Shown one piece after another: positions 1-20,117 of a stretch of 20,117 nucleotides of DNA. Below the pieces are notes generated by a model, which had not been told where the DNA came from, searched no databases, and was given only the letters and a program-made list of their open reading frames with translations. This DNA is from a virus (lineage: Duplodnaviria > Heunggongvirae > Uroviricota > Caudoviricetes), in the IMG/VR virus record IMGVR_UViG_2778261163_000008, positions 1-20,117 of that record; one strand, written 5' to 3'. The stretch's first letter is position 1, and each line of letters starts with the position of its first letter. A program made the translations under genes and the position numbers.

Positions 1-582
1 TTACCCTATAGGTGCTACTGGCCATTCAATATCCGGTGCAGTTGATGTATCAACACGGTTCAGCAACACCCGATACTTTTTCCAGGCTTCCAGCAACAAG
101 GTTTCTTCCTCCGTTGCGATTTCCAGATCTACAGCATCCTGAAGTGGCGCAATATGCTCACTGGCTACCTGCATCAGGCTGTTTTTTGTTTCTTCTGCCT
201 CCCGGATCCGGAACAGTTTTTCTGCTTCTGCATCTTTCACCCAGGCTGTGCCGTTCCACTTCTGAAACTCCCCTTCCGGCGATAACCAGGTAACATTTTC
301 CGGTAACGGACCGAGTTCAGAAATAAATAACGCGTCCCCTGACGCTACGTCATAAACCGTTTTACCCCGATGGTCTTCATCGAGATGCCACGATGCCTTA
401 TCACTGTTGAAAACAGCCACAAAGCCAGCAGGAATATCTGGTGGTGCAATATCGGTACTGTTTGCTGGCAGACCTGTATGAGGCGGAATATATGCGTCAC
501 CTTCACCAATAAATTCATTAGTTCCGGCCAGCAGATTATAAATTTTTATGGTCCGTGGTTGTTCACTCATTCTGAATGCCAT
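1..582 (-). CDS. tfa: Tail fiber assembly protein (lambda Tfa-like chaperone), 193 aa
   Basis: Translation [24 protein letters not shown]... is near-identical to lambda/E. coli prophage Tfa proteins as I recall them. ATG at 582-580 overlaps the stf stop (TAATG); stop codon is the first 3 bases of the window. Confidence 0.9.
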
Positions 583-3500
583 TATGCAAGCCTCACAATA
601 TAGTTAAATGCGATGTTTTTGACGGTGTTTTCCGCGTTACCAGCAGCGTTAACGGTGATGGTGTGTCCATGTGAACCAATCGCAACGGAGTGCGTATGAG
701 CACCAATACCGACAGTATGCGCGTGTGCACCTGCAGATGCTGCTGTGCCGGACAGTGAATGGCTATGATTACCATCTGTACTGGTATTCGCTAACCACCC
801 CGTAGACATACCTACTGAGCCTTGTACACCCCAGGTATTTTGACCTGAGCTTGTATAACCATATTGATAAGTATCTTTAAAAACACTGGGGTTAAATCGA
901 CGGCCATCTCTATGGCTGTGATTACCAGCTGCATTCGTGCTGCCACTTAAACTATGGGTATGCGCACCAGTGTTATTCGTGGATTTAGTGCCGTAATCAA
1001 ACGACGATGTGGTTTTCGTCCCCAAATCTGTACTGGATGCGCTGGCGCTGTGGGTATGCGATTTAATGCCGTCCTGTTCCTGAGACAATACGGCCCGACC
1101 ACTGGCAGGTTTGCCCTTAATCGTCCAGCCACGCATATCAGGGATCACGCCTGACGGATAAGCGGCTGCAAGTTTCGGGTAAGCAGATTTGTCAAAAGTC
1201 TGCCCCTGCATCAGGGCATAACCAGACGGAACGGTATCTGATGGCCACGGGATTGGTGCGCCGACTGGGTAGCTTTCTGGTGGAAGATTTTTCGAGGTAT
1301 AAACTTCTGCCCAGTCATCCTCAAAACCATAACCGTCTCTTGAAGAACGGTAGAACAGACCACCATTTCTGTAATGCGCCTTCATCTGCAAGGTCCGGCA
1401 ACTTCCGACTCCGGTATAGAAGTTAACCAGAATATAGCTGTCGCCAGAGCGGGTGACATTATAAGCGCCTGATTCGGCATTCCAGGGAACGCCACCATCC
1501 GCATCGGCATATGTATCCGTTGCCCTTCTGGCAAAAGCAGCCACATGCGCGGCGGTTAAAGTAATATCTTTGGAACCATCAAACTCAACACCAGAAACCC
1601 GTCTTGGCGTTTGCAGCTTTGTTGCTGTTAATGCATTACCGTTCAGACTTGCGGACAGTTTGGTTCCAATAACCAGTTCGCCGGTTGCGTTATCAATAGC
1701 AAACGGTCTTAATGTATTCCAGCCACCATAAACATCACCTTGATTGGTAAGCAGCAGGTAAGTTTTAGCGCCATCATTACGCCATAATGCACCATACTCT
1801 CCACCTATCATTCGAATCTGATTACCACCACGCGCTACAATTTCGTCTGTGGCAAAAAGTTTTTTGCACGACAAGTTATCGTTAACGATTAACGAATGAG
1901 ACTCATAAAAACCACGCCCACTCTTAAAATCAAGGATAACGTCCGCCGCGATACATTCAGTCGCTGGATTTGTTGCCCCAAACTTATAGGTCGTATCATT
2001 AACAACGAGATCAGCACCAGGTGCGGATATTGACAGGCCATCTTCGATAAACGCAAAAACAGGGAAAGCAGCGCCATCAACATAGAACACAGAGCGCAAA
2101 TCATCGCCCTTATTACTCATCATTATTGAGTGGATGGCTCGTTCATTGTTTTGATATTGCCAGAACATTCCATAAGCATAACGCCCCCTGTCAGTCCAGC
2201 CACCAGGCATAACAAATCCGTTAAACTCGCAGTTATTCATCGGATCGCCTGCGGTTCGCGTTGCCGTGGTGATAATGACCCTTGATGCCAGTTCGCTTAC
2301 TGAGCCAGCAGAACGCATAACAACAACAGGGTAATATTTTCCAGATGTTGCACCTGCAGGAGCGTTAACCCGCACATAACGCATACCACGCTTATCAGCA
2401 AAGTCTGTTTTACTGACCGCGTTAATGTTGTTCAGGAAGCGTCCCTTATCGGGTATATCAGCGCCGTTCTGGTCTTTCTGCAGACGTTTCTCTGCATTGT
2501 CATAGGCTGATTTTACTGCCTTTGGCGTTGCCGCCAGCGTTTCAGACGTACTGTTGGTCGCACTGCTGAGCTGTACTATCCCCTTTTTCGTCGTGCTCGC
2601 ATCCTCAAGCGCCACGGCGGATGCAATATCCTCTGCCCGTTTTGCCGCTGTCTCGGCGCGCGTTGCCGCGGATTCCGCCGTACTTTTGCTCTGTGCTGCC
2701 GCCGTCGCACTGCCAGCTGCCTCTGTCGCCTTCGTGGATGCTGTCGTGGCGCTGCCCTTCGCTGCTGACGCCTGTCTGGTCGCCTCATCTTTTGAAGCAG
2801 ACGCCGATGATGCCGATGACGCCGCCGAACTGGCGGACGATGCGGCAGCCGTTTTTGAGGATTCTGCGCTGGTTTCCGACGCTTTCGCGTTCGTCTCGGA
2901 TGTCTTCGCTGCGGAAGCAGAACTCGCTGCTGCGCTGGCCTGTTCAGTGGCTTCGCCAGCCTTCGTTGTGGCTGTTGAAGCGGATGATGCGGCGCTTTCT
3001 GCCGATTTTCCGGCGGCGGTGGCACTGGCTGAGGCCTGCCCGGCACTTGTTGACGCGGCGCTGGCAGATGATGCAGCCGCTGTTTTTGAGCCTGCCGCAG
3101 CTGAGGCGCTCTGTCCCGCAGCCGTCTCAGAAGACTTAGCGTTCGTCTCGGACGTTTTTGCCGCCTTCGCGGAATTTCCTGCCGCCGTTGCCGAGGAAGT
3201 TGCGCTACTGGCGCTCGAGGATGCGTTCGTTTCTGATGATTTCGCTGCCTCTTTTGAGGCCGCCGCATCCCGGGCTGAGGTGGCAGCTTCTGACGCTTTC
3301 GTGGTCGCGGTGGATGCAGAAGTGGCTGCTGATTGTTGTGACGCTGCGGCATTCGTTTCTGACGTTTTCGCGGCACTGGCACTGGTAGCTGCCGCGCTTT
3401 TTGAGGACTCTGCAGCAGCAGCACTTTTCGATGCTTCACTGGCCTTTGTTGATGCCGTTCCTGCGCTGGAAGACGCTGACTGAGCCGACGACGCGGCCTG

Positions 3501-3980
3501 TCCGGCTGATGTGCTGGCTGCACGTGCTGAGCCTGCAGCATCAGTCGCATGGGTTGCCGCCTCACGGGCTGATGTGCCGGCATCGCTGGCTGACTTCTTC
3601 GCGGCTGCCGTGTTCTGTGCCACCGCGGACGCGTTACGCGCCACCTCTTCCACCATCAGTTCAAAACGGCGCAGTGCCTCAGGACGGGCATCATCCTCCG
3701 TCATGGCACCGAGAAAATCATTCAGCGTACCGGGTCGGGAATCTTCATACACGGTGATGGTCCCGGCATGTGACGGCGGGAATCCCTCCACCAACAGAAT
3801 AACGCTGTACTGCCCGTACTCAACGTCCATGCTGTAACGCCCGGCTTCATCCGGATTTTCTGAGGCCAGCGTGTTCACCACCACCGTGGTGCTGTTACGT
3901 TTTGCTTTCAGCTGGATTGTGCAGTTCTGTACCGGTTTTCCTGTGCCGTCTTTCAGTACACCTGAAATCTTTACTGCCAT
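582..3980 (-). CDS. stf: Side tail fiber protein (lambda Stf / StfR-like), about 1132 aa from the ATG
   Basis: N-terminus [26 protein letters not shown]... and C-terminus ...[22 protein letters not shown] match lambda Stf by recall. The ORF-track start at 3986 is a GTG two codons upstream; the ATG at 3980-3978 gives the lambda-like MAVKIS N-terminus and has a GGGGTGA Shine-Dalgarno-like motif upstream. Confidence 0.9.
2560..3640 (-). repeat. Low-complexity Ala/Ser/Thr/Lys-rich repetitive coding region inside stf
   Basis: About 350 residues dominated by degenerate repeats such as AAKTSETNA / SASSASSA / TKASEAA. This composition also creates long spurious ORFs in other frames on both strands (2554..3483 +, 2576..3583 -, 2621..3139 +). 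Confidence 0.8.
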
Positions 3981-3991
3981 ATTCACCCCAC

Positions 3992-4017
3992 AAAAAAGCC
4001 CGCCTGAACCGGCGGGC
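3992..4017 (-). terminator. Rho-independent terminator downstream of lom
   Basis: Minus strand reads GCCCGCC-GGTTCA-GGCGGGC followed by TTTTTT (7-bp GC stem, 6-nt loop, U-run), sitting between the lom stop (4045) and the stf start (3980). Confidence 0.7.
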
Positions 4018-4044
4018 TGTCATAACACTGTGTTACCTGGCTAA

Positions 4045-4644
4045 TCAGAATTTATAACCGACACCCACGATGAAACCGTCAGTGCGCCAGTCACCACTGC
4101 CGGAGCCTTCATAAGCAATATCAATGGCCACGGATTCGGTCGGGTTAAACTGCACGCCAGCCCCCCACGCCAGAGACGTGTTGCTGTGGCGACCGTCATC
4201 ACTTCCGGTCAGCACATCGTGCGTTTTCCCCTTGTTGTCAGTTACGCGGAGATAATCCCCGAAGAAAGTCGACACACGGCTGTAAGCCACACCCGCCATC
4301 GCATACACGCTGAACCATTCATTCACGCGCACAGACGGCCCCGCCATTACGCTGAACCAGCGGTTACGCACGGAATCTTCATGCCAGCGGGTATCGCTGT
4401 AATGCGTTTTTTGCTCATCTTCAGCGTTGGCATAACTGAATGACGTAATCAGCCCCAGCGTGTCCGTAAACTCATAACGGTATTTCACGTTAATCCCGTT
4501 CAGATTATCGCTGCCGGGAGCGTTCGTACGGGCATGAAGATACCCTGCGCTCAGTGTGGCCTGCTGCTCAGACGCCCATGCAGGCGCACCGGATACGGCC
4601 AGACAGATGGCTGTGGACAAAATGGCTGCACAAACTTTACGCAT
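4045..4644 (-). CDS. lom: Lom-family outer membrane protein (Ail/Lom/PagC/Rck beta-barrel family), 199 aa with signal peptide
   Basis: N-terminal signal-peptide-like [24 protein letters not shown]; C-terminus ...[25 protein letters not shown] matches lambda Lom by recall; position between J and stf as in lambda; AGAGG Shine-Dalgarno-like motif upstream of the ATG. Confidence 0.9.
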
Positions 4645-4665
4645 AATTACCTCTCGCTTTTCTGC

Positions 4666-4692
4666 AATAAAAAAGGCGCCATTTCTGGCGCC
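4666..4692 (-). terminator. Rho-independent terminator downstream of J
   Basis: Minus strand reads GGCGCC-AGAAAT-GGCGCC followed by TTTTTTATT, immediately after the J stop (4712) and before the lom ribosome binding site. Confidence 0.65.
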
Positions 4693-4711
4693 CGTATATG
4701 GGTTATAAAAT

Positions 4712-7700
4712 TCAGCTGATACTGATGCCTGCGGTGGCTTTCTTCATCACCACAACCAGCAAATCGCTGATACTTGCTGTGGGATACCAGTCATTTACCA
4801 GCCATGCTGACACCGAAAACTCCAGCGTCATGTGACCGTGACCGGCAGGCATATCAATAACGCCACTGTAAATCAGCGTATTATCCAGCGCGGTACGGTT
4901 ATAAATTTCAGCACCGTTTTTCCGCACTATCAGACGGCATGAGGAGTAAATATCAGTATGCTCTCTCTCATGTTTAGCGCCGCTGAATGCCACCGCCGGA
5001 ATAACAATCTGCCGGTCAAACGGCTGATCGTCATAAACCCTGACGGTAATGGTCCCTGATGGCCACCGTTCCGGTGCACGGGAGTCCCGGGGGAAAGCTT
5101 TGCCCACTGTTTTAACGAGATCGCCTTCAATCTGGTTCGCGGACAGTTTTCCCAGAACCCGACAGTTCTCGTTAATCGTGACGTTGTTGAGCGTCCCGGA
5201 GTTCGCATTCACGTTACCGCTGATATCGGCATTTTTCGCCGTCAGCCGCCCATCCGGTGTCAGGGAAAATGCCGGTGGATTTCCACCACTGGTAATGGTG
5301 GGGGCCGTCAGGCGTTTCAGGAACACGTCGTTCATGAATATCTGATCACCCTGACCAACAAACATCGGTTTTGTGTTGCCATTCGCAGGATTAACCATCG
5401 CAATCCTGTCCGCCGCCAGCAGCACCTGACTCTGCATGCCGTCAGGGGTGTTCTCAATACCGGCACCAATACCCGCGATATAAAGGCGTCCGTCCTGCAT
5501 CTGCTGCAGCTTCACAGCCCACATGCTGTTCAGGTTATTATTTGTATCAACCTGAACCTTCTGTATCTGCTGAATTGCCGCACTCTGGTCTTCCAGTTTC
5601 TTATTGACGGTCTGCGTGATTTCATTGCTGACATCCGTAATGGACGTCCTGATTTCAGCCAGGTCAGGCGCAAGCTGACCGTTATCAATCTGCGTCCACA
5701 GCTCCTGAGCCAGATGGGTTTTCCCTATCTCGCCTTTGAAAAAATCCAGATAGCCGGATGCATCATCGCTCGCCCGACCGACGGCCTCCACAAATGCCGA
5801 TTTGCCTACGGTGTTCACACTGCGGATATAAAAGTAATAATCATGGCCCGGTTTGATATTGATACTGGCGGCTATCCAGTACAGCGCCGTACCAAGATAG
5901 CGGGCTGTGGTTTCAACCTGCCTGATATCCGCAATCCGCTTTTCCGAGAACCAGAACTCAAACTGTACCGTCGGATCATAAACCGCAAGATGCGGCGTGG
6001 CGGTTATCTGAAAATAGCCCGGCGTCAGCTCAATCCGCGACGGCGCTGCCGGTGCGGCGATCCGGAACAATACCGATGCCGGATCGCCCTGCTGTCCCCA
6101 TGCATTTACCGCCCGGACTGTCAGCCTGTAATTTCCCAGCGCCAGCTGCGTGAAGCGATATGTGGTTTCCGTCGTCCGGGCCGTGCTGACCAACCGCTCA
6201 CTGCCGTCGTCCGCTGCCACGGTCAGGCGAAGCATAAAGCTCACCCCCTTCACCACCTTCGGCGTGTCCCAGCGCGCCAGCACCTGGTATTCCCCGCTGT
6301 CTGCGGTGACTTCTGCGGTCAGGTGCTGAACTGCTGGCGGCGTGACACCATTCACCGTGCCGCTCTGGTCACCGTCAAAGTGCGCCCCGTTATCCACGAT
6401 GGCTTCTTTCTCCGGTACATGCTGCACGGCAGTGATGGCATACGTACCGTCATCGTTCTCACGGATACTCACACAGCGGAACAGGCGCTGACGCAGCGTC
6501 GGCAGCTTCAGCCCCCACACGCTGTACTCGGCAACGCCGTCAGGAACCCGGCTCACTTTCACCTTCACGCCGTCGGTGACGGACTGGACCTCCACGCTCA
6601 CCGGATTACCCTGCCCGTCAACCAGGCTTATCAGCGTGGTGCCGGAGGATGGCAGCGTGATTTCACGGTCGAGCGTCAGTGTCCGCGTCTGGCTGTTCAC
6701 CGCCAGCACGCGCCCGCCGATGCTGATCCCCGCATAGTCATCATCACAGATTTCAATGACATCACCTGGTACATGGCGAAGCCCTTCAGCACCCACGCTG
6801 AAGTCCACGGTCTGCGTTTCCAGCAGCTCCGTTTTAATCAGCCACAGCCCGGCGCGGTGTGCCTGCCCCCGGCTGGTACAGCCAAAGGCATCCATCTTCG
6901 TGACGTTACGACCGTAACGGGCAATGGCCTGCGTATCCTCCACAAGCTCTGTCGCCGTCTCCCAGCCGTTGTCCGGGTCAATCCAGTTCACCTCAACGGC
7001 ATTATGGCGGTCCTTCAGGGCGCTGAAGCTGTAGCGGAACGGCGCGCCATCATCCGGCATCACCACATTACTGCGGTTATAGGTCCACACCTTATCTGAT
7101 GGTCGGTCCTGCACGAACGTCAGCCTCTGCCCGTTCCATACCGGCATACAGCGCATCGCCGAGCAGAAATCACTGAGCACATCCCACGCTTTTCGCTGTG
7201 TGGTCAGGTACGCATTACAGGTGATGCGCGGCTCCGTGCCGCCAAAGCCGTCCGGCACTGACTGGTCGCAGTACTGGCCGATGACATACAGCGCCCATTT
7301 ATCCACATCTGCCGCACCAAGACGTTTCCCCATGCCGTAGCGCGGGTGGGTCAGCATATCCCACAGACACCAGGCCATGTTGTTGCTGTATGCTGGCTTA
7401 AACGTTCCGTCCCAGATACCGCTGTATTGCCGCGTCTGCGGGTTATAATTCGACGGCACCTGCAGAATACGCCCGCGCAGATGATAATTACGGCTCACCT
7501 GCTGGCTGCCGAACTGCTCCGAATCCACCTGCACGCCGACCAGTGCCGTGTTCGGGTAGCACTGTTTCACATCGATGATTTCGGTGTATGACGACCAGAG
7601 CGTTTTGTTCTGCAGCTGGTCTGTGGTGCTGTCCGGCGTCATTCTGCGCATCCGGATATTAAACGGGCGCGGCGGCAGGTTATCCACCACCACCGAGGCC

Positions 7701-8191
7701 AGATACTGCGAGGTGGTTTTGCCCTTAATGGTGATGTCTTTTTCCGTCACCCAGCCACCATTACGCTGTATCTGAACCAGCAGGCGAACTTCCGACGGAT
7801 TCCGGTCCCCCTTTGAGGTGGTTTCCACCAGTGCCTGCACGCCGAAAGTAAAACGCAGACGGTCAATGTTTGCCGACGTGATGGTCCGGGTGATCGGCGT
7901 GTCATATTTCACTTCTGTACCGAGCACCGTCTCGGAGCCGGAGGATTCAAATCCCTCCGGCGGTGTCTGCTCCTGCTCACCGGCCCGGAACACCACCGTG
8001 ACGCCGGATATATTGGTATTCCCCTCACTGTCCAGCACCGGCGTACTGTTCAGCAGCACGCTTTTTAATCCATCCACCGGACCTTCAACCGGCCCTTCGC
8101 TGATGGCATCGATCACACTCAGCAGCTGCGTGGACTTCAGGTTGTCCTTCGCTTCGCGCGGGGTATGCCCCTTACTGCTGCCTTTACCCAT
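4712..8191 (-). CDS. J: Tail tip host-specificity protein J (central tail fiber), 1159 aa
   Basis: Translation [41 protein letters not shown]... is lambda-J-like over most of its length by recall; the C-terminal roughly 150 aa is lambda-like in architecture but visibly divergent; lambda-like size and position. Confidence 0.95.
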
Positions 8192-8251
8192 TCGTCATGC
8201 TCCATAAACGATAAAACCGCCCGCAGGCGGTTTCACATAAAACGTTTTTCA

Positions 8252-8899
8252 TCAGCGACCAATCACCACAACCTGACCACCGTCCCCTTCGTCTGCCGTG
8301 CTGATTTCCTGAGATACCACACGTGACCCCACGCGCATTTCACCGTACAGCACCGGTAGCGGATTACCCTGGGCAACCATGTTATCCAGTGAGGAGAAAT
8401 ACGTGTTCTGCTTTCCATTATCCGTTGTCTGTGTACGGGGGGTTCTGGGTTTGGGGGCCAGCATCTGCGCCACACCGCCCAGGATCATACTGGCCCCTGC
8501 CGCATACATACCCGATACAACCGCGGCCCCCAGCCAGCCCACAGGGTTCCACCATGCAACCGCAATCAGCGCCGCCCCCAGCACTGCCTGAAAAATACCG
8601 CCACTTTTAGCACCCGCCAGACGCGGTACGATATGGATCACGGCACCATGTTCCAGCGGCTCATTAAGACGGGCTGATAATTCGTTTTCGCCTGCATCAC
8701 GCCCGGCAATGCGCACCTGATACCAGCCATCGCTCAGTTTCTGACGAAACGCCGGGATCTGCATGGCCAGCGCCCGGATGGCTTCGGCCCCTGTTTTCAC
8801 ACGAAGGTCGATGCGGCGGCCAAATCGTTGCAAATCCCCGTAAAGGCAGATGCGTGCCATGCCCGGTGATGCCAGAGGGAGTGTGTGCGTCGCTGCCAT
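8252..8899 (-). CDS. I: Tail assembly protein I, about 215 aa
   Basis: From the ATG at 8899 the translation MAATHTLPLASPGMARICLYGDLQRFGRRIDLRVKTGAEAIRA... matches lambda I by recall. The ORF-track start at 9010 is an upstream in-frame extension that overlaps K and is probably not used. Confidence 0.85.
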   Translation of the reverse strand: MAATHTLPLASPGMARICLYGDLQRFGRRIDLRVKTGAEAIRALAMQIPAFRQKLSDGWYQVRIAGRDAGENELSARLNEPLEHGAVIHIVPRLAGAKSGGIFQAVLGAALIAVAWWNPVGWLGAAVVSGMYAAGASMILGGVAQMLAPKPRTPRTQTTDNGKQNTYFSSLDNMVAQGNPLPVLYGEMRVGSRVVSQEISTADEGDGGQVVVIGR

Positions 8900-9540
8900 T
8901 TGTCGGTATACCTCTCTCGTTTGCTCAGTTGTCCAGGAATATGGTGCAGCAGCTCGCCGTCGCCGCAGTAAATAGCGGCATGATTCGGCACCGATGAACC
9001 AAAACAGCACAGCAGCACATCGCCCGGCTGCGCCGCTGACAACGGCACCTGATACAGCCCCGTTGCCTCCATATTATCCAGATAGAGATTCTGACCGTGA
9101 CGCCACCAGTCATCCTCACGATGAAAATCCGGCATCTCAATTCCCGCCAGATGGTAAGCATCCCGGAACAGCGTGTAACAGTCCGTCACCCCGTGCTCAA
9201 AGCGCCGCCCGGTAAGATGCGGCACACAGCGGAACTTGTGAATCGCCCCCCGGCAGACCAGCCACCACGGCAAATCACTCTGCACCTGCAGCCGCCGGTC
9301 AGCCTCACTCAGCCAGGGCAGAGCACCGGGGTGACTGTGGACCAGCGCCACAATCTCACCCTGCATTTCTGCCCGCAGCCAGTCCTCCGGAGCCATCCGG
9401 AAATACGCCTCCGGCTCACCGGAGATATTCACGCAGGGAAAATATCTTTCCCCTTCCGGCGTTCTCACCACGAAGCCGCACGACTCCGCTGGCGCACATC
9501 GCCGGGCGTGCGCCAGAATCGCTGATTCTGTCTCTGTCAT
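8797..9540 (-). CDS. K: Tail assembly protein K (JAB/MPN-like plus NlpC/P60-like domains), 247 aa
   Basis: Translation MTETESAILAHARRCAPAESCGFVV...EIVALVHSHPG (JAB/MPN-type motif) followed by GVTDCYTLFRDAYHLAGIEMPDF...NHAAIYCGDGELLHHIP (NlpC/P60-like); lambda-K-like by recall. The 3' end overlaps the start of I out of frame. Confidence 0.85.
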   Translation of the reverse strand: MTETESAILAHARRCAPAESCGFVVRTPEGERYFPCVNISGEPEAYFRMAPEDWLRAEMQGEIVALVHSHPGALPWLSEADRRLQVQSDLPWWLVCRGAIHKFRCVPHLTGRRFEHGVTDCYTLFRDAYHLAGIEMPDFHREDDWWRHGQNLYLDNMEATGLYQVPLSAAQPGDVLLCCFGSSVPNHAAIYCGDGELLHHIPGQLSKRERYTDKWQRRTHSLWHHRAWHASAFTGICNDLAAASTFV

Positions 9541-9545
9541 GGGAT

Positions 9546-10244
9546 TTACTGCGAAAGTTTGTTAATGGAAAGGAAGCCGCCAAAGTTGCCGACGTTATTG
9601 CGAAACTTACAGCCACTCAGGCATTTGCTGCATTTATCCTTCGTGATATCGGACGTCGGCTGATCATATTCATCCGCGACCGCCGGACCGTGATAACCGC
9701 ACTCATCACCGCGATAGGTCCAGGTGCAGGTATTAGCCAGCATGATGCGGCCCGGAAAAACAGCGCCGTCCGTTTCCGTCGGCGTGGACAGTACAAAGGA
9801 GGCACTGACCGCGCTCAGTTCGCTGCACTGCTCAATGCGCCAGCGGCTGATTACCTCCTGCTCCGGATCGGCGTCACTGTTTCCGTTGACGAAGTTCACC
9901 GCATCCAGAAAACGGGCGTAAACCTTACGCCTGACCACCGTTCCGCCGACCAGACTCTGCAGGTCTTCCGCCATCCCGGTGACCATGCCGTGCAGATTAG
10001 AGACTTTCAGCGTTGGCCTTGCACTGGCTCCTTTGCCGTTCATCTCAAATCCACTCCCCTGAATGGGATAGGCCTGATACTGCCGCCCCTGCCAGGTGAC
10101 TGGTTCACCTTTTTCGTTCTGCTCATTACAGAAGAAATAACGATCTCCGCCGACCTCTGTCAGATCAATTTCCCAGAGCACGATCAGCGCGGATTGCTCC
10201 GTTTTAGTGCACTCATTGAGTGTTTCCTGCTGTATATCCTGCAT
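9546..10244 (-). CDS. L: Tail tip assembly protein L, 232 aa
   Basis: Translation MQDIQQETLNECTKTEQSALIVLWEIDLTEVGGDRYFFCNEQNEKGEPVTWQGRQYQAYPIQGSGFE... with conserved cysteines near the C-terminus, lambda-L-like by recall. Its ATG overlaps the stop of M (TGATG). Confidence 0.9.
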   Translation of the reverse strand: MQDIQQETLNECTKTEQSALIVLWEIDLTEVGGDRYFFCNEQNEKGEPVTWQGRQYQAYPIQGSGFEMNGKGASARPTLKVSNLHGMVTGMAEDLQSLVGGTVVRRKVYARFLDAVNFVNGNSDADPEQEVISRWRIEQCSELSAVSASFVLSTPTETDGAVFPGRIMLANTCTWTYRGDECGYHGPAVADEYDQPTSDITKDKCSKCLSGCKFRNNVGNFGGFLSINKLSQ

Positions 10245-18063: not shown

Positions 18064-18663
18064 TTATGCATTAAGAAGGGTCAAAAGACGCTCACGCGCC
18101 ATTCGTTCGTTAACAGCTTTCTTCAGCGCACCACTCGCCCGCGCTTCCTGCCAGGCTTTCATTGAGCGGACACCAGAGTCTGCGTCCTGATAGGCCGGAT
18201 ATGTCACCGGGCTGACGTCATACAGACGAGAAATGCGCGTGATTTCCCGGATAACAATCCCCTCGTCGTCTTCATACCAGCTCTCTCCGTCACGGGCGAC
18301 ACGAAACGCGAACGAGGACTGATTAATGTCACCACGCAACATTGGAGACAGCACCAGGTCACAAATAGTCGGAGTATCCGGTGCAACAATGTCATAACGT
18401 AAACCGCGTTCATCCACCGACAATGACAACGTGCCGGCAGAACTTCGTCCGAGAATGAAATTAGGATCATGATTAAACAAGCCACGTACATCATCATTCA
18501 GTACATCATCAAAAGCCCCCGGCTTGATGATTTCACGAAATCCCCACAGAGGTTCTGAACGACTGTTAAATACCGAGCCATACCCCAGAATGTGGGTCGG
18601 GGCATTATCATATTGTTCCGCCCGCACCTCCCCGCTGTAACAGCGCGTTTCACGGTCATTCAT
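18064..18663 (-). CDS. Prohead maturation protease, HK97 family (S78/U35-like), 199 aa
   Basis: Position between portal and major capsid; size and sequence pattern typical of HK97-type prohead proteases; ATG lies within the last codons of the portal gene. Confidence 0.8.
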   Translation of the reverse strand: MNDRETRCYSGEVRAEQYDNAPTHILGYGSVFNSRSEPLWGFREIIKPGAFDDVLNDDVRGLFNHDPNFILGRSSAGTLSLSVDERGLRYDIVAPDTPTICDLVLSPMLRGDINQSSFAFRVARDGESWYEDDEGIVIREITRISRLYDVSPVTYPAYQDADSGVRSMKAWQEARASGALKKAVNERMARERLLTLLNA

Positions 18664-19882
18664 CGTTCTTTTCCTCTTTGCCTTTCGTATCTTTAAAGTT
18701 ATTCAACGGATTTGCTGCATTTACGCTGACCAGCATTTCATCCAGACCGTCAACCGGGTTCATATCCTCAAATGCCCTGGCTTCATTCCGACTCATCCAG
18801 CCATCTGTAATGGCAAAGTGATAGAACTGCGCACGCTCCTGTGGGGTCCCACGGAGCAACCCCGTGAGGTTGAAACGAACGTAATACCCGGCAGCCCGTT
18901 CTGTACGGGTAAACAGGCGACGGTTAAGCTCCTGCTCCCAGTTCGCAACCCAGGGCATCATCGTGTAGCGAACAAACTGAATCGCCTGCTGCGTAATATT
19001 CGAAAATGTGGCTTTTTCCAGGTCATTAATCATGTGCGCCGGGACATTAAAAATCCCGGCAATCATCGACCGGTTCAGCTTGGTCATATCAATGATCTGA
19101 GCATCCACCGGAGAAACTGTCAGAGCGCGGTAATCCAGTTGCGCAGGCAGCAACATGGTTTTATTTTCCTGGCTGCGAAGCGCTGTCACCGCCCGCTGCC
19201 ACATATTTTTAAGCCTGCCCCAGCTTTGTTCGTTCAGTTCATTTTTCACAGAAATAATACCGGCAGGACGGGCATTACCGTTAAAAAAGGCGCTGGTATA
19301 CTGCTGGCCACTCATTCCCATACCAATGGTTTCAGCATGCTGCATGATCGGGCTCAGTCCCATTTTCTGATTGTTTCCCAGCGCCCTGATATGGATCATG
19401 TCGTCCGGACTTACCGCAAATGCACCCTCTTCGTTATACACCCCGTAAGTATGACGCCCACCGGTGTTAAGTAACGTGGTTTCCCATGGCATACAGCATT
19501 CAAGGCTGGTAACCTCTCCACGACGATTACGTTTTACCCACGTATAACCATTGCCCCACCCCAGCACATGACGCTGCTTCAGTTCCCGCCACTTATAGCT
19601 GGTCTGCCAGGCATTCGGTTCATCATGAACGAGCCAGAACAACGGATGATCGCGTGCAGGCTGAACATGCTCATTCGTTTTTCGCATCACATGCAGGGGC
19701 ATCTGAGCCACACTGGATGAAATAACATAAATACAGGCATAGACAGCAGCCAGCTTCATGGATGTTTCCGGACTGACATACACATCCCGGGCAAAAATAT
19801 TATCCGTCTCAGCGGCCTCTCCGGTTACCGGAACCGAGGGATTTTCCAGAGGCTCACTGCGAAACAGAGCATCAAGAAGCAT
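18656..19882 (-). CDS. Portal protein, HK97 family, 408 aa
   Basis: About 400 aa protein upstream of protease and capsid; sequence pattern typical of HK97-family portals; GAGGAG motif 5 nt upstream of the ATG. Confidence 0.85.
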   Translation of the reverse strand: MLLDALFRSEPLENPSVPVTGEAAETDNIFARDVYVSPETSMKLAAVYACIYVISSSVAQMPLHVMRKTNEHVQPARDHPLFWLVHDEPNAWQTSYKWRELKQRHVLGWGNGYTWVKRNRRGEVTSLECCMPWETTLLNTGGRHTYGVYNEEGAFAVSPDDMIHIRALGNNQKMGLSPIMQHAETIGMGMSGQQYTSAFFNGNARPAGIISVKNELNEQSWGRLKNMWQRAVTALRSQENKTMLLPAQLDYRALTVSPVDAQIIDMTKLNRSMIAGIFNVPAHMINDLEKATFSNITQQAIQFVRYTMMPWVANWEQELNRRLFTRTERAAGYYVRFNLTGLLRGTPQERAQFYHFAITDGWMSRNEARAFEDMNPVDGLDEMLVSVNAANPLNNFKDTKGKEEKNDE

Positions 19883-20117
19883 GTTTTCTCCTCATGGACA
19901 CCACCAGTGCATAAAGCAGCAACAAACAGCCCGACAGCATCAGAGACGCTGGCAGACCTGCATACAGATAAACGCCAGCAGTGAGCAAACCGAAACCGAT
20001 CAGCCCGGTCATATCAGTAATACCGGAAAGCGCAATGTGTTTTAGTAGCGAAATGCGGCGCGGGTCGGCGAATAATTTTTGTTGGAGCTTAAGGGTGAGA
20101 AGGATTTCGGCCTGCAT
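19872..20117 (-). CDS. Chimeric ORF: ModE N-terminal 32 residues fused in frame to a 49-residue hydrophobic tail (81 aa); probably a junction artefact rather than a native gene
   Basis: First 32 residues MQAEILLTLKLQQKLFADPRRISLLKHIALSG match the N-terminus of E. coli ModE as I recall it; the rest (ITDMTGLIGFGLLTAGVYLYAGLPASLMLSGCLLLLYALVVSMRRKHAS) is unrelated and strongly hydrophobic. The stop overlaps the portal start. Confidence 0.45.
   Translation of the reverse strand: MQAEILLTLKLQQKLFADPRRISLLKHIALSGITDMTGLIGFGLLTAGVYLYAGLPASLMLSGCLLLLYALVVSMRRKHAS
20022..20117 (-). pseudogene. modE: 5' fragment (codons 1-32) of molybdate-responsive transcriptional regulator gene modE, truncated at a junction with prophage DNA
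   Basis: Recalled identity of the encoded 32 aa to the ModE N-terminus; similarity ends abruptly after ...HIALSG at about position 20021. Confidence 0.5.

What the first reader, a model, noticed from the sequence alone, without database searches (positions are those of the whole stretch)
582..3980. Mosaic side tail fiber: lambda-like N-terminal anchor and C-terminal tip with a different central domain
The N-terminal roughly 115 aa and the C-terminal roughly 200 aa look lambda-Stf-like. The central roughly 450 aa ([26 protein letters not shown] ... [18 protein letters not shown]) is a distinct, Cys/Trp/Tyr-containing globular-looking region that I associate with Rac-type StfR fibers rather than lambda Stf. 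Domain shuffling in tail fibers determines host range, so this fiber may recognise a different receptor from lambda Stf.
Basis: partly seen in the sequence, partly recalled or inferred. Interest (0 to 1): 0.45.

Follow-up and report, generated by a model that had tools for sequence, protein, structure and literature searches.

The report
Common Rac-type phage side tail fiber
This gene encodes an ordinary, already catalogued side tail fiber of a lambda-like E. coli prophage: it is essentially the K-12 Rac StfR protein with a different 48-residue receptor-contact tip, and the same protein occurs in isolated phages and in about a fifth of complete E. coli genomes.

Summary
The ORF is real and intact, on the minus strand (window 582-3980, 1132 aa), in the order J-lom-stf-tfa.

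The boundaries need correcting:
- Lambda-like sequence runs through residue ~490, including a 51-heptad Ala/Ser coiled coil. It does not stop at ~115.
- Residues 491-904 replace lambda's hinge and distal rod.
- Residues 905-1132 are a T4-gp37-type tip.

It is not a new mosaic. It is collinear with K-12 Rac StfR: 96-100% identical in every segment except residues 1024-1071 (8/48). It is 99.5% identical to the Stf of phage PhiR34_1. At least 80% of the gene is present in 1231 of 5426 complete E. coli genomes.

The only real module boundary against StfR is the 48-residue "head" between the third and fourth of seven HxH motifs. This is where T4 gp37 host-range mutations map. At least eight head families sit on the same frame.

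The central region is built from shared fiber modules:
- a Mu-S-like neck
- a beta-sandwich knob with no solved relative (module A)
- a gp34/Mu-S-like module
- a Mu-S'-like knob

Verdict: already known, low interest. One side observation: a T-even phage carries the same head cassette at 97% DNA identity, against ~70% in the flanks.

The parts
582..3980 (-). stf: side tail fiber gene, 1132 aa, StfR type
   Evidence: ORF. 94.7% identical to K-12 StfR and 99.5% to PhiR34_1 Stf. RefSeq annotates the matching genes as 'prophage tail fiber N-terminal domain-containing protein' or stfR.
3708..3980 (-). Residues 1-91: N-terminal anchor (collar-forming) domain. Residues 92-101 (window 3678-3707) form the flexible linker.
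   Evidence: Pfam PF08400, E 1.6e-71. Matches the solved lambda Stf N-domain 9E7M/9MGH residues 1-94, E 2e-51. Domain limits taken from Yu et al. 2025, PMC12617516.
2607..3677 (-). Residues 102-458: Ala/Ser-rich proximal rod of 51 uninterrupted heptads (S-A-x-x-A-x-x), a predicted trimeric coiled coil
   Evidence: Identity autocorrelation peaks only at multiples of 7. In-register composition is Ser 37/51, Ala 35/51 and Ala 47/51 at positions 0, 1 and 4. Lambda lacks residues 304-408, which is 15 heptads. The lambda equivalent is described as the proximal coiled coil.
2421..2606 (-). Residues 459-520: conserved neck ([24 protein letters not shown]...) followed by a Mu-S-like segment. Divergence from lambda starts at ~490.
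   Evidence: Residues 441-521 match Mu tail fiber S residues 91-172 (PDB 8JU3, 5YVQ). The lambda alignment breaks after ...PKAVK.
1866..2420 (-). Residues 521-705: module A, a beta-sandwich knob domain with motifs GKYYP, DPMNNCxFxG, GGWSDR, ERAIHS and FYVExxAFP
1647..1865 (-). Residues 706-778: module B, a T4 gp34 / Mu S-like shaft module
   Evidence: Matches gp34 residues 1036-1107 (PDB 4UXE, 9X3R), E ~5e-12, and Mu S residues 268-336, E 2e-11. Pfam Gp34_trimer covers 663-762, E 3.4e-27.
1545..1646 (-). Residues 779-812: 'phage tail fibre repeat' linker ([27 protein letters not shown])
   Evidence: Homologs carry PF03406 here and have this motif duplicated or swapped.
1290..1544 (-). Residues 813-897: module C, a Mu S'-like knob (…[26 protein letters not shown])
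   Evidence: Matches the PDB 8JU3 chain residues 321-409, E 1e-20. Other E. coli alleles carry a different knob here (P0065, P0120).
1119..1268 (-). Residues 905-954: collar domain of the gp37-type receptor-binding tip
   Evidence: Pfam Collar PF07484, E 6.9e-12. Part of the match to T4 gp37 tip 2XGF, E 5e-85.
912..1118 (-). Residues 955-1023: ascending half of the needle, with HxH motifs 1-3
   Evidence: HxH at residues 975, 1007 and 1021. Aligned to 2XGF.
768..911 (-). Residues 1024-1071: head cassette, the predicted receptor-contact surface. This is the only segment that differs from K-12 StfR.
   Evidence: 8/48 identical to StfR and 12/48 to lambda. DNA identity to Rac falls to 0.28-0.45 here and is 0.92-1.00 on both sides. 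It aligns to gp37 residues 932-965, where host-range mutations at 938-955 map. The surrounding 198-bp tip segment (window 741-938, which contains the cassette) is present in 1144 of 5426 E. coli genomes. At least 8 head families occur on the same frame.
585..767 (-). Residues 1072-1132: descending half of the needle, with HxH motifs 4-7 and the conserved C-terminus ...[11 protein letters not shown]
   Evidence: 98% identical to StfR and 93% to lambda.
1..582 (-). tfa: tail fiber assembly chaperone, 193 aa. Its start codon overlaps the stf stop codon.
   Evidence: Pfam Caudo_TAP, E 3.5e-44. 93-94% identical to TfaR and lambda Tfa. PHROG 105 'tail fiber assembly'.
4045..4644 (-). lom, the upstream neighbour (context)
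   Evidence: Pfam Ail_Lom, E 2e-124.
3997..4018 (-). GC-rich hairpin plus T-run between lom and stf (terminator-like)
   Evidence: The sequence is visible. This spacer is 100% identical in Rac and PhiR34_1.

Best explanation
This is the side tail fiber (Stf) of a lambda-like prophage, of the Rac StfR type.

Architecture, by homology to Ur-lambda Stf and T4 gp37:
- Three chains form one fiber.
- A 51-heptad Ala/Ser coiled coil forms a proximal rod about 53 nm long, some 15 nm longer than lambda's.
- A chain of knob and shaft modules (neck, A, B, repeat, C; residues ~459-897) replaces lambda's hinge and distal rod.
- A gp37-type tip ends the fiber: a collar, a needle held by seven HxH metal sites, and a 48-residue head at the apex.

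Function (inferred):
- The downstream Tfa chaperones folding of the tip.
- The fiber makes the first, reversible contact with the cell surface and speeds up J-mediated irreversible adsorption.
- Specificity lies in the head cassette. It is exchanged between fibers by recombination at the conserved G-N-H-S-H codons that flank it.

Shown here: gene order, homology, module boundaries, the heptad pattern, the HxH count, cassette replacement and population frequency.

Not shown, only inferred: trimer and collar assembly, metal binding, receptor identity and the effect on adsorption.
For: - Gene order M-L-K-I-J-lom-stf-tfa.
- Collinear with K-12 StfR at 94.7%. PhiR34_1, whose record names E. coli K-12 MG1655 as host, carries a 99.5% identical Stf.
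- N-domain matches the solved lambda StfN structure. Lambda's Stf architecture is described in PMC12617516.
- 51 heptads.
- Tip matches T4 gp37 2XGF, E 5e-85, and has 7 HxH motifs.
- The head aligns to gp37 residues 932-965, where mutations at 938-955 change OmpC and LPS use (PMC5221442).
- The head is the only segment replaced relative to StfR, with sharp DNA breakpoints.
- At least 8 head families occur on one frame.
- The same head sits on lambda-type short fibers in mEp460, PhiR42_1 and PhiR26_1, and in a T-even gp37-like fiber.
- The junctions used for engineered functional lambda STF chimeras (R393, S528) coincide with the natural boundaries seen here (PMC11338833).
Against: - No experiment on this allele was found. 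Literature searches for PhiR34, Kati and P896 returned nothing relevant.
- The receptor is unknown.
- K-12 StfR itself sits in a defective prophage, so family membership alone does not prove function.
- The role of the central modules is untested.
- The whole central region could not be modelled as a monomer (pLDDT 39).
Confidence: 0.88

Rival explanations
1. One reading: a novel chimera in which a lambda Stf anchor and tip were joined to a foreign, Rac-type central domain, giving a new host-range determinant.
For: Relative to lambda Stf the similarity does break at ~490 and resume at ~905.
Against: - The N-terminus, rod and tip frame are closer to StfR (96-99%) than to lambda (82-93%).
- The whole protein is collinear with StfR and 99.5% identical to a deposited phage Stf.
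- The architecture is present in 1231 of 5426 complete E. coli genomes.
- The central block is 412/414 identical to StfR, so no new junction exists there.
Confidence: 0.05
2. The central knob, module A (residues 521-705), is a second, lateral receptor-binding or glycan-binding site. The fiber would then have two specificities: knob and tip.
- E. coli carries several alleles at 57-70% identity.
- Fibers with two RBDs in one chain have been described (PMC11990801).
- Ur-lambda fibers appear to use O16 O-antigen as well as OmpC.
Against: - Its most conserved motifs are shared across very distant fibers from Vibrio, Aeromonas and E. coli phages. That fits a structural or trimerisation role better than a variable receptor site.
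- No binding data exist.
Confidence: 0.12
3. The gene is a non-functional remnant in a decaying prophage, as stfR is in K-12 Rac.
For: K-12 Rac is cryptic and its lom is interrupted by IS5. Prophage tail fiber genes are often relics: StfQ is a 320-aa remnant and stfE a pseudogene.
Against: - The ORF is full length with no frameshift.
- lom, J, the tail, tape-measure, capsid and portal genes are all intact in the window.
- The same protein is carried by isolated phages PhiR34_1 and Kati.
- The window ends at tfa, so the rest of the prophage cannot be judged.
Confidence: 0.1

Closest known systems
E. coli K-12 Rac prophage StfR (b1372, 1120 aa)
   Same: Collinear over the full length. Identity is 96-100% for residues 1-1023 and 1072-1132, and the central block is 412/414 identical. 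The gene order lom-stf-tfa and the upstream spacer are the same.
   Different: The head cassette is replaced: 48 aa here against 36 aa in StfR, 8/48 identical. Rac is defective, whereas the late operon in this window is intact as far as it is visible.
Side tail fiber of Escherichia phage PhiR34_1 (PV340559.1); also phage Kati (PP925833.1)
   Same: 99.5% identical over 1132 aa, including the head. Same neighbours: J, lom, tfa.
   Different: Six substitutions, all in the Ala/Ser rod. The rest of the window (head and tail genes) matches other phages better, namely vB_EcoS-640R1 and PhiR49_2.
Ur-lambda Stf (774 aa; N-domain solved in PDB 9E7M/9MGH)
   Same: N-anchor 93% identical, coiled coil 82-87%, tip frame 91-93%, and a Tfa partner 93% identical. 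Presumably the same attachment and adsorption-accelerating role (PMC12617516).
   Different: Lambda lacks 15 heptads (residues 304-408). It has a hinge and a distal rod (its residues ~394-525) where this protein has 414 aa of knob modules. Its head differs (12/48 identical). Lambda's receptor, OmpC, cannot be assumed here.
T4 gp37 receptor-binding tip (PDB 2XGF)
   Same: Collar, needle and head layout; seven HxH motifs; E 5e-85 over residues 901-1132.
   Different: The head is 48 aa against 34 aa and is unrelated in sequence. The rest of gp37 is unrelated. This fiber attaches to a siphovirus tail.
Phage Mu tail fiber S/S' (PDB 5YVQ, 8JU3) and T4 gp34 C-terminal region (PDB 4UXE, 9X3R)
   Same: Shared modules:
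- neck 441-521 matches Mu S 91-172
- module B 706-778 matches Mu S 268-336 and gp34 1036-1107
- module C 813-907 matches the 8JU3 chain 321-415
   Different: Module A (521-705) has no counterpart detectable in these solved chains. The N- and C-termini are of other types.

Membership tests
Lambda/Rac side tail fiber (Stf) family | N-terminal 'prophage tail fibre N-terminal' anchor domain | tested here: met
   PF08400 covers 1-134, E 1.6e-71. Matches the solved lambda StfN, E 2e-51.
Lambda/Rac side tail fiber (Stf) family | Gene lies after J and lom and directly before a tfa chaperone gene | tested here: met
   J 4712-8191, lom 4045-4644, stf 582-3980, tfa 1-582, all on the minus strand.
Lambda/Rac side tail fiber (Stf) family | Long heptad-periodic Ala/Ser proximal rod | tested here: met
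   51 uninterrupted heptads at residues 102-458.
Lambda/Rac side tail fiber (Stf) family | Forms trimeric fibers whose N-domains build a collar on the tail tip | not testable with these tools
   Inferred from 93% identity to lambda StfN and from PMC12617516.
K-12 StfR orthologue (StfR-type architecture) | Collinear similarity over the full length, including the 414-aa central block that lambda lacks | tested here: met
   A single BLASTP alignment spans 1-1132 against 1-1120 at 94.7%. The central block is 412/414 identical.
K-12 StfR orthologue (StfR-type architecture) | Same receptor-contact head as StfR | tested here: not met
   Residues 1024-1071 are 8/48 identical. DNA identity is 0.28-0.45.
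T4 gp37-type receptor-binding tip | Collar domain followed by a needle with repeated HxH motifs (seven in T4) | tested here: met
   PF07484 covers 907-954. Seven HxH motifs. 2XGF match, E 5e-85.
T4 gp37-type receptor-binding tip | Variable head inserted between the ascending and descending needle halves | tested here: met
   A 48-aa insert lies between HxH 3 and 4 and aligns to gp37 residues 932-965.
T4 gp37-type receptor-binding tip | Iron coordination by the HxH motifs; binding of OmpC or LPS | not testable with these tools
   The motifs are present. Metal and receptor binding were not examined.
Caudovirales tail fiber assembly protein (Tfa / lambda gpK-like) for the neighbour gene | Caudo_TAP domain, encoded directly downstream of the fiber gene | tested here: met
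   PF02413, E 3.5e-44. 93% identical to lambda Tfa.
Tailspike / depolymerase (considered for module A) | Beta-helix catalytic domain, or significant fold match to a glycanase | tested here: not met

The most novel reading that the evidence does not exclude
Module A (residues 521-705) belongs to a widespread knob-domain family of long phage fibers that has no solved structure. There are ~130 clusters at 50% identity, found in sipho- and myovirus fibers of Escherichia, Vibrio and Aeromonas phages. It might be a lateral second binding site, for example for O-antigen or capsule, which would make StfR-type fibers dual-specificity adhesins. The present evidence (a confident beta-sandwich model, no solved homolog, several alleles in E. 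coli) neither supports this strongly nor excludes it.
Probability: 0.12. Interest if true: 0.5.

Novelty: already known. Interest (0 to 1): 0.15.

Why it matters
As a discovery it matters little. The protein is a frequent, annotated allele of a well-known family, and tail-fiber mosaicism has been textbook knowledge since the lambda, T4 and P2 comparisons.

Three practical points come out of it:
1. The map of module boundaries, especially the 48-residue head flanked by G-N-H-S-H codons, shows where specificity can be swapped on a constant scaffold. The natural junctions coincide with the fusion points already used to retarget lambda particles (R393 and S528).
2. This head type is in about 21% of complete E. 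coli genomes and its receptor is unknown.
3. Module A is a common fiber domain that still lacks an experimental structure.

Tried and rejected
- AF2 on the whole central region (residues 491-905) with a 7-sequence alignment gave pLDDT 39 and was discarded.
- A profile of module A against PDB sequences returned only antibody heavy chains at E 0.02-1, taken as noise.
- The search for homologous proteins with the module A profile returned only short E. coli fragments, so it gave no deeper alignment.
- Literature searches for PhiR34, PV340559, Kati, Chlobot and P896, and for StfR function, returned nothing on this allele or its receptor.
- TRF found no meaningful DNA tandem repeat in the Ala/Ser rod. 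The periodicity is at the protein level only.
- K-12 StfP shows no similarity, StfE matches only in the collar (38%) and StfQ only in the tip. They add nothing beyond StfR.
- The long + strand ORFs inside the gene (for example 2554-3483) overlap the Ala/Ser rod and were treated as shadow ORFs of the biased sequence. They were not examined further.
Full report
**1. What is there**

The finding's coordinates hold one uninterrupted ORF on the minus strand: window 582-3980, ATG at 3980, 1132 aa. The plus-strand translation is full of stops.

The genes around it are all on the same strand. They are tfa (1-582, Caudo_TAP), lom (4045-4644), J (4712-8191), then I, K, L, M, a tape-measure gene, an HK97-type capsid gene and a portal gene. 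This is the late operon of a lambda-like phage or prophage.

The best whole-window phage matches are E. coli siphoviruses vB_EcoS-640R1 and PhiR49_2 at 96-97%.

**2. Checking the observation**

I compared the protein with Ur-lambda Stf (774 aa, from KT232076) and K-12 Rac StfR (1120 aa, from NC_000913).

| Residues | Identity to lambda Stf | Identity to K-12 StfR |
|---|---|---|
| 1-101 | 93% | 99% |
| 102-303 | 82% | 96% |
| 304-408 | absent from lambda | 99% |
| 409-490 | 87% | 99% |
| 491-904 | 9% (no real alignment) | 412/414 |
| 905-1023 | 91% | 96% |
| 1024-1071 | 25% | 8/48 |
| 1072-1132 | 93% | 98% |

But lambda-like sequence extends to ~490, not ~115. The block foreign to lambda is 414 aa.

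Against StfR, a single alignment covers the full length at 94.7%. Every segment is 96-100% identical except 1024-1071.

The DNA profile shows the same thing. Identity to Rac is 0.91-1.00 along the gene, falls to 0.45 and 0.28 over residues ~1013-1072, and returns to 0.94-1.00.

**3. How common it is**

- At least 80% of the gene is present in 1231 of 5426 complete E. coli genomes. RefSeq annotates it as 'prophage tail fiber N-terminal domain-containing protein' or stfR.
- Phage PhiR34_1 (PV340559.1; its record names K-12 MG1655 as host) has a Stf 99.5% identical over all 1132 residues, head included. Phage Kati has 99.7% over the unmasked part.
- The 198-bp tip segment (window 741-938) that contains the head cassette is found in 1144 of 5426 genomes.

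**4. Anatomy**

- **(a) Residues 1-91, anchor.** This is the phage_tail_N anchor. It matches the solved lambda Stf N-domain (PDB 9E7M/9MGH). In Ur-lambda, twelve such domains form a collar at the gpV/gpM junction and give four trimeric fibers (PMC12617516).
- **(b) Residues 102-458, rod.** These form 51 uninterrupted heptads of the form S-A-x-x-A-x-x, with Ala in 47 of 51 at the fifth position. This corresponds to lambda's proximal coiled coil. Lambda is shorter by exactly 15 heptads, so this rod should be about 15 nm longer.
- **(c) Residues ~459-520, neck.** They contain the widely conserved [24 protein letters not shown] motif and then a segment that matches Mu fiber protein S residues 91-172.
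- **(d) Residues 521-705, module A.** See section 5.
- **(e) Residues 706-778, module B.** They match T4 gp34 residues 1036-1107 and Mu S residues 268-336. Pfam Gp34_trimer covers 663-762.
- **(f) Residues 779-812, linker.** A 'tail fibre repeat' linker.
- **(g) Residues 813-897, module C.** They match the Mu S/S' chain 8JU3 residues 321-409, E 1e-20.
- **(h) Residues 905-1132, tip.** They match the T4 gp37 receptor-binding tip 2XGF, E 5e-85. The tip has a collar domain and seven HxH motifs, the same number as in T4.

Other E. coli alleles replace module A by 57-70% variants, drop module B, or carry a different knob in place of C. The 'central domain' is therefore a string of exchangeable modules, not one unit.

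**5. Module A**

A full HMMER scan of 1.84 billion representatives found 133 clusters (114 at E<1e-10). In these, the domain lies inside long fiber proteins (mostly ~400-2700 aa) with many unrelated N-termini.

An alignment of 35 members shows conserved motifs: GKYYP, DPMNNCxFxG, GGWSDR, ERAIHS and FYVExxAFP.

With that alignment AF2 gives a confident beta-sandwich (pLDDT 89.3, pTM 0.86). No solved structure resembles it closely:
- a sequence profile against PDB gave only noise
- the best Foldseek E-value was 0.03

Among predicted viral structures the same fold appears in fibers of JenK1, Vibrio phage phi 3, Aeromonas phages (including a gp37) and Escherichia phage navn.

The deep conservation of its motifs across such distant fibers suggests a structural knob. 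A binding role is not excluded.

**6. The head cassette**

The HMMER alignment to 2XGF can be converted to gp37 numbering. It reproduces G938, T939, V941, G943, Y949, Y953 and A955, the residues named in PMC5221442. On that numbering, window residues 1024-1071 correspond to gp37 residues 932-965.

That is the head domain, where mutations change OmpC-dependent and LPS-dependent adsorption.

Among E. coli proteins that share the StfR-type frame I found at least eight unrelated head sequences of 32-53 aa between the same flanking motifs.

The window's head also occurs on lambda-type short fibers in mEp460, PhiR42_1, PhiR68_2 and PhiR26_1. The head is therefore a freely exchanged specificity cassette. 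It is the only real difference between this protein and K-12 StfR.

**7. Mechanism**

This is mostly inferred by homology. A trimeric lateral fiber is anchored by its N-domains. It reaches out on a long coiled coil and knobbed shaft and touches the cell with the head of a metal-stapled needle whose folding needs Tfa.

Contact is reversible and accelerates J-dependent adsorption, as in Ur-lambda, where the speed-up is 10-30 fold and the fibers are non-essential.

The receptor of this head is unknown. OmpC or LPS core are the precedents from T4 and lambda, and O-antigen has been suggested for Ur-lambda.

The engineered lambda STF chimeras that work in vivo were fused at R393 and S528 (PMC11338833). 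Those are the same junctions at which this natural protein departs from and rejoins lambda.

**8. Other K-12 fibers**

- StfQ (a 320-aa remnant) matches only residues 876-1132, at 75%, and has another head type.
- StfE matches only the collar, at 38%.
- StfP does not match.

**9. Side observation**

The gp37-like fiber of the T-even phage P896 (Gaprivervirus) carries the same head:
- 45 of 48 residues are identical.
- DNA identity is 97% over the 144-nt cassette.
- The flanking tip segments are only 69-73% identical.
- The high-identity block begins and ends at the G-N-H-S-H codons.

This points to a comparatively recent exchange of just the head between a virulent and a temperate phage lineage. 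Fiber-tip exchange between these groups is long known, but is usually described as ancient (PMC3945230).

**10. Verdict**

Novelty: already known. Interest: low (0.15).

Noticed in passing
window 768-911 (-) and locus L006 (OL451225.1, phage P896) ~1530-1700: The 144-nt head cassette is 97% identical in DNA to the gp37-like fiber of a virulent T-even phage (Gaprivervirus P896). The flanking tip DNA is only 69-73% identical. The high-identity block starts and ends at the G-N-H-S-H codons. This suggests a recent cassette exchange between virulent and temperate lineages.
   Followed up: partly
window 2607-3677 (-): The Ala/Ser-rich rod is 51 perfectly in-register heptads (S-A-x-x-A-x-x, with Ala in 47 of 51 at one position). 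The length difference from lambda Stf is exactly 15 heptads (105 aa), so rod length varies in whole heptads. TRF finds no repeat at the DNA level.
   Followed up: yes
window 1866-2420 (-): Module A is a fiber knob domain family: ~130 clusters at 50% identity, motifs DPMNNCxFxG, GGWSDR and ERAIHS. It has a confident beta-sandwich model but no solved structure, and Pfam covers only its last ~40 residues.
   Followed up: partly
window 3997-4018 (-) and 4674-4693 (-): Strong terminator-like hairpins with T-runs lie between lom and stf and between J and lom, inside the late operon. The lom-stf spacer is 100% identical in Rac and PhiR34_1. Presumably they are read through under Q antitermination, but this was not examined.
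   Followed up: no
window 1-60 (-), 3' end of tfa: The last ~60 nt of tfa are only 79% identical to both Rac and PhiR34_1 tfa, although the fiber tip frame is ~100% identical. The Tfa C-terminus here (…EWPVAPIG) differs from TfaR (…EWPALP). Rac and PhiR34_1 carry a pinR-type recombinase downstream of tfa. The window ends before that position.
   Followed up: no
window 3142 (-), i.e. about residue 280 of Stf: The best whole-window phage match (vB_EcoS-640R1, 97.4%) covers 3142-20022 only. Its Stf shares the N-anchor and first part of the rod and then diverges, which is another recombination junction inside the coiled coil.
   Followed up: no
window 2554-3483 (+) and 2576-3583 (-, other frame): Long alternative-frame ORFs (309 and 335 aa) overlap the Ala/Ser rod. 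They are most likely shadow ORFs produced by the biased GCN/TCN codon content.
   Followed up: no
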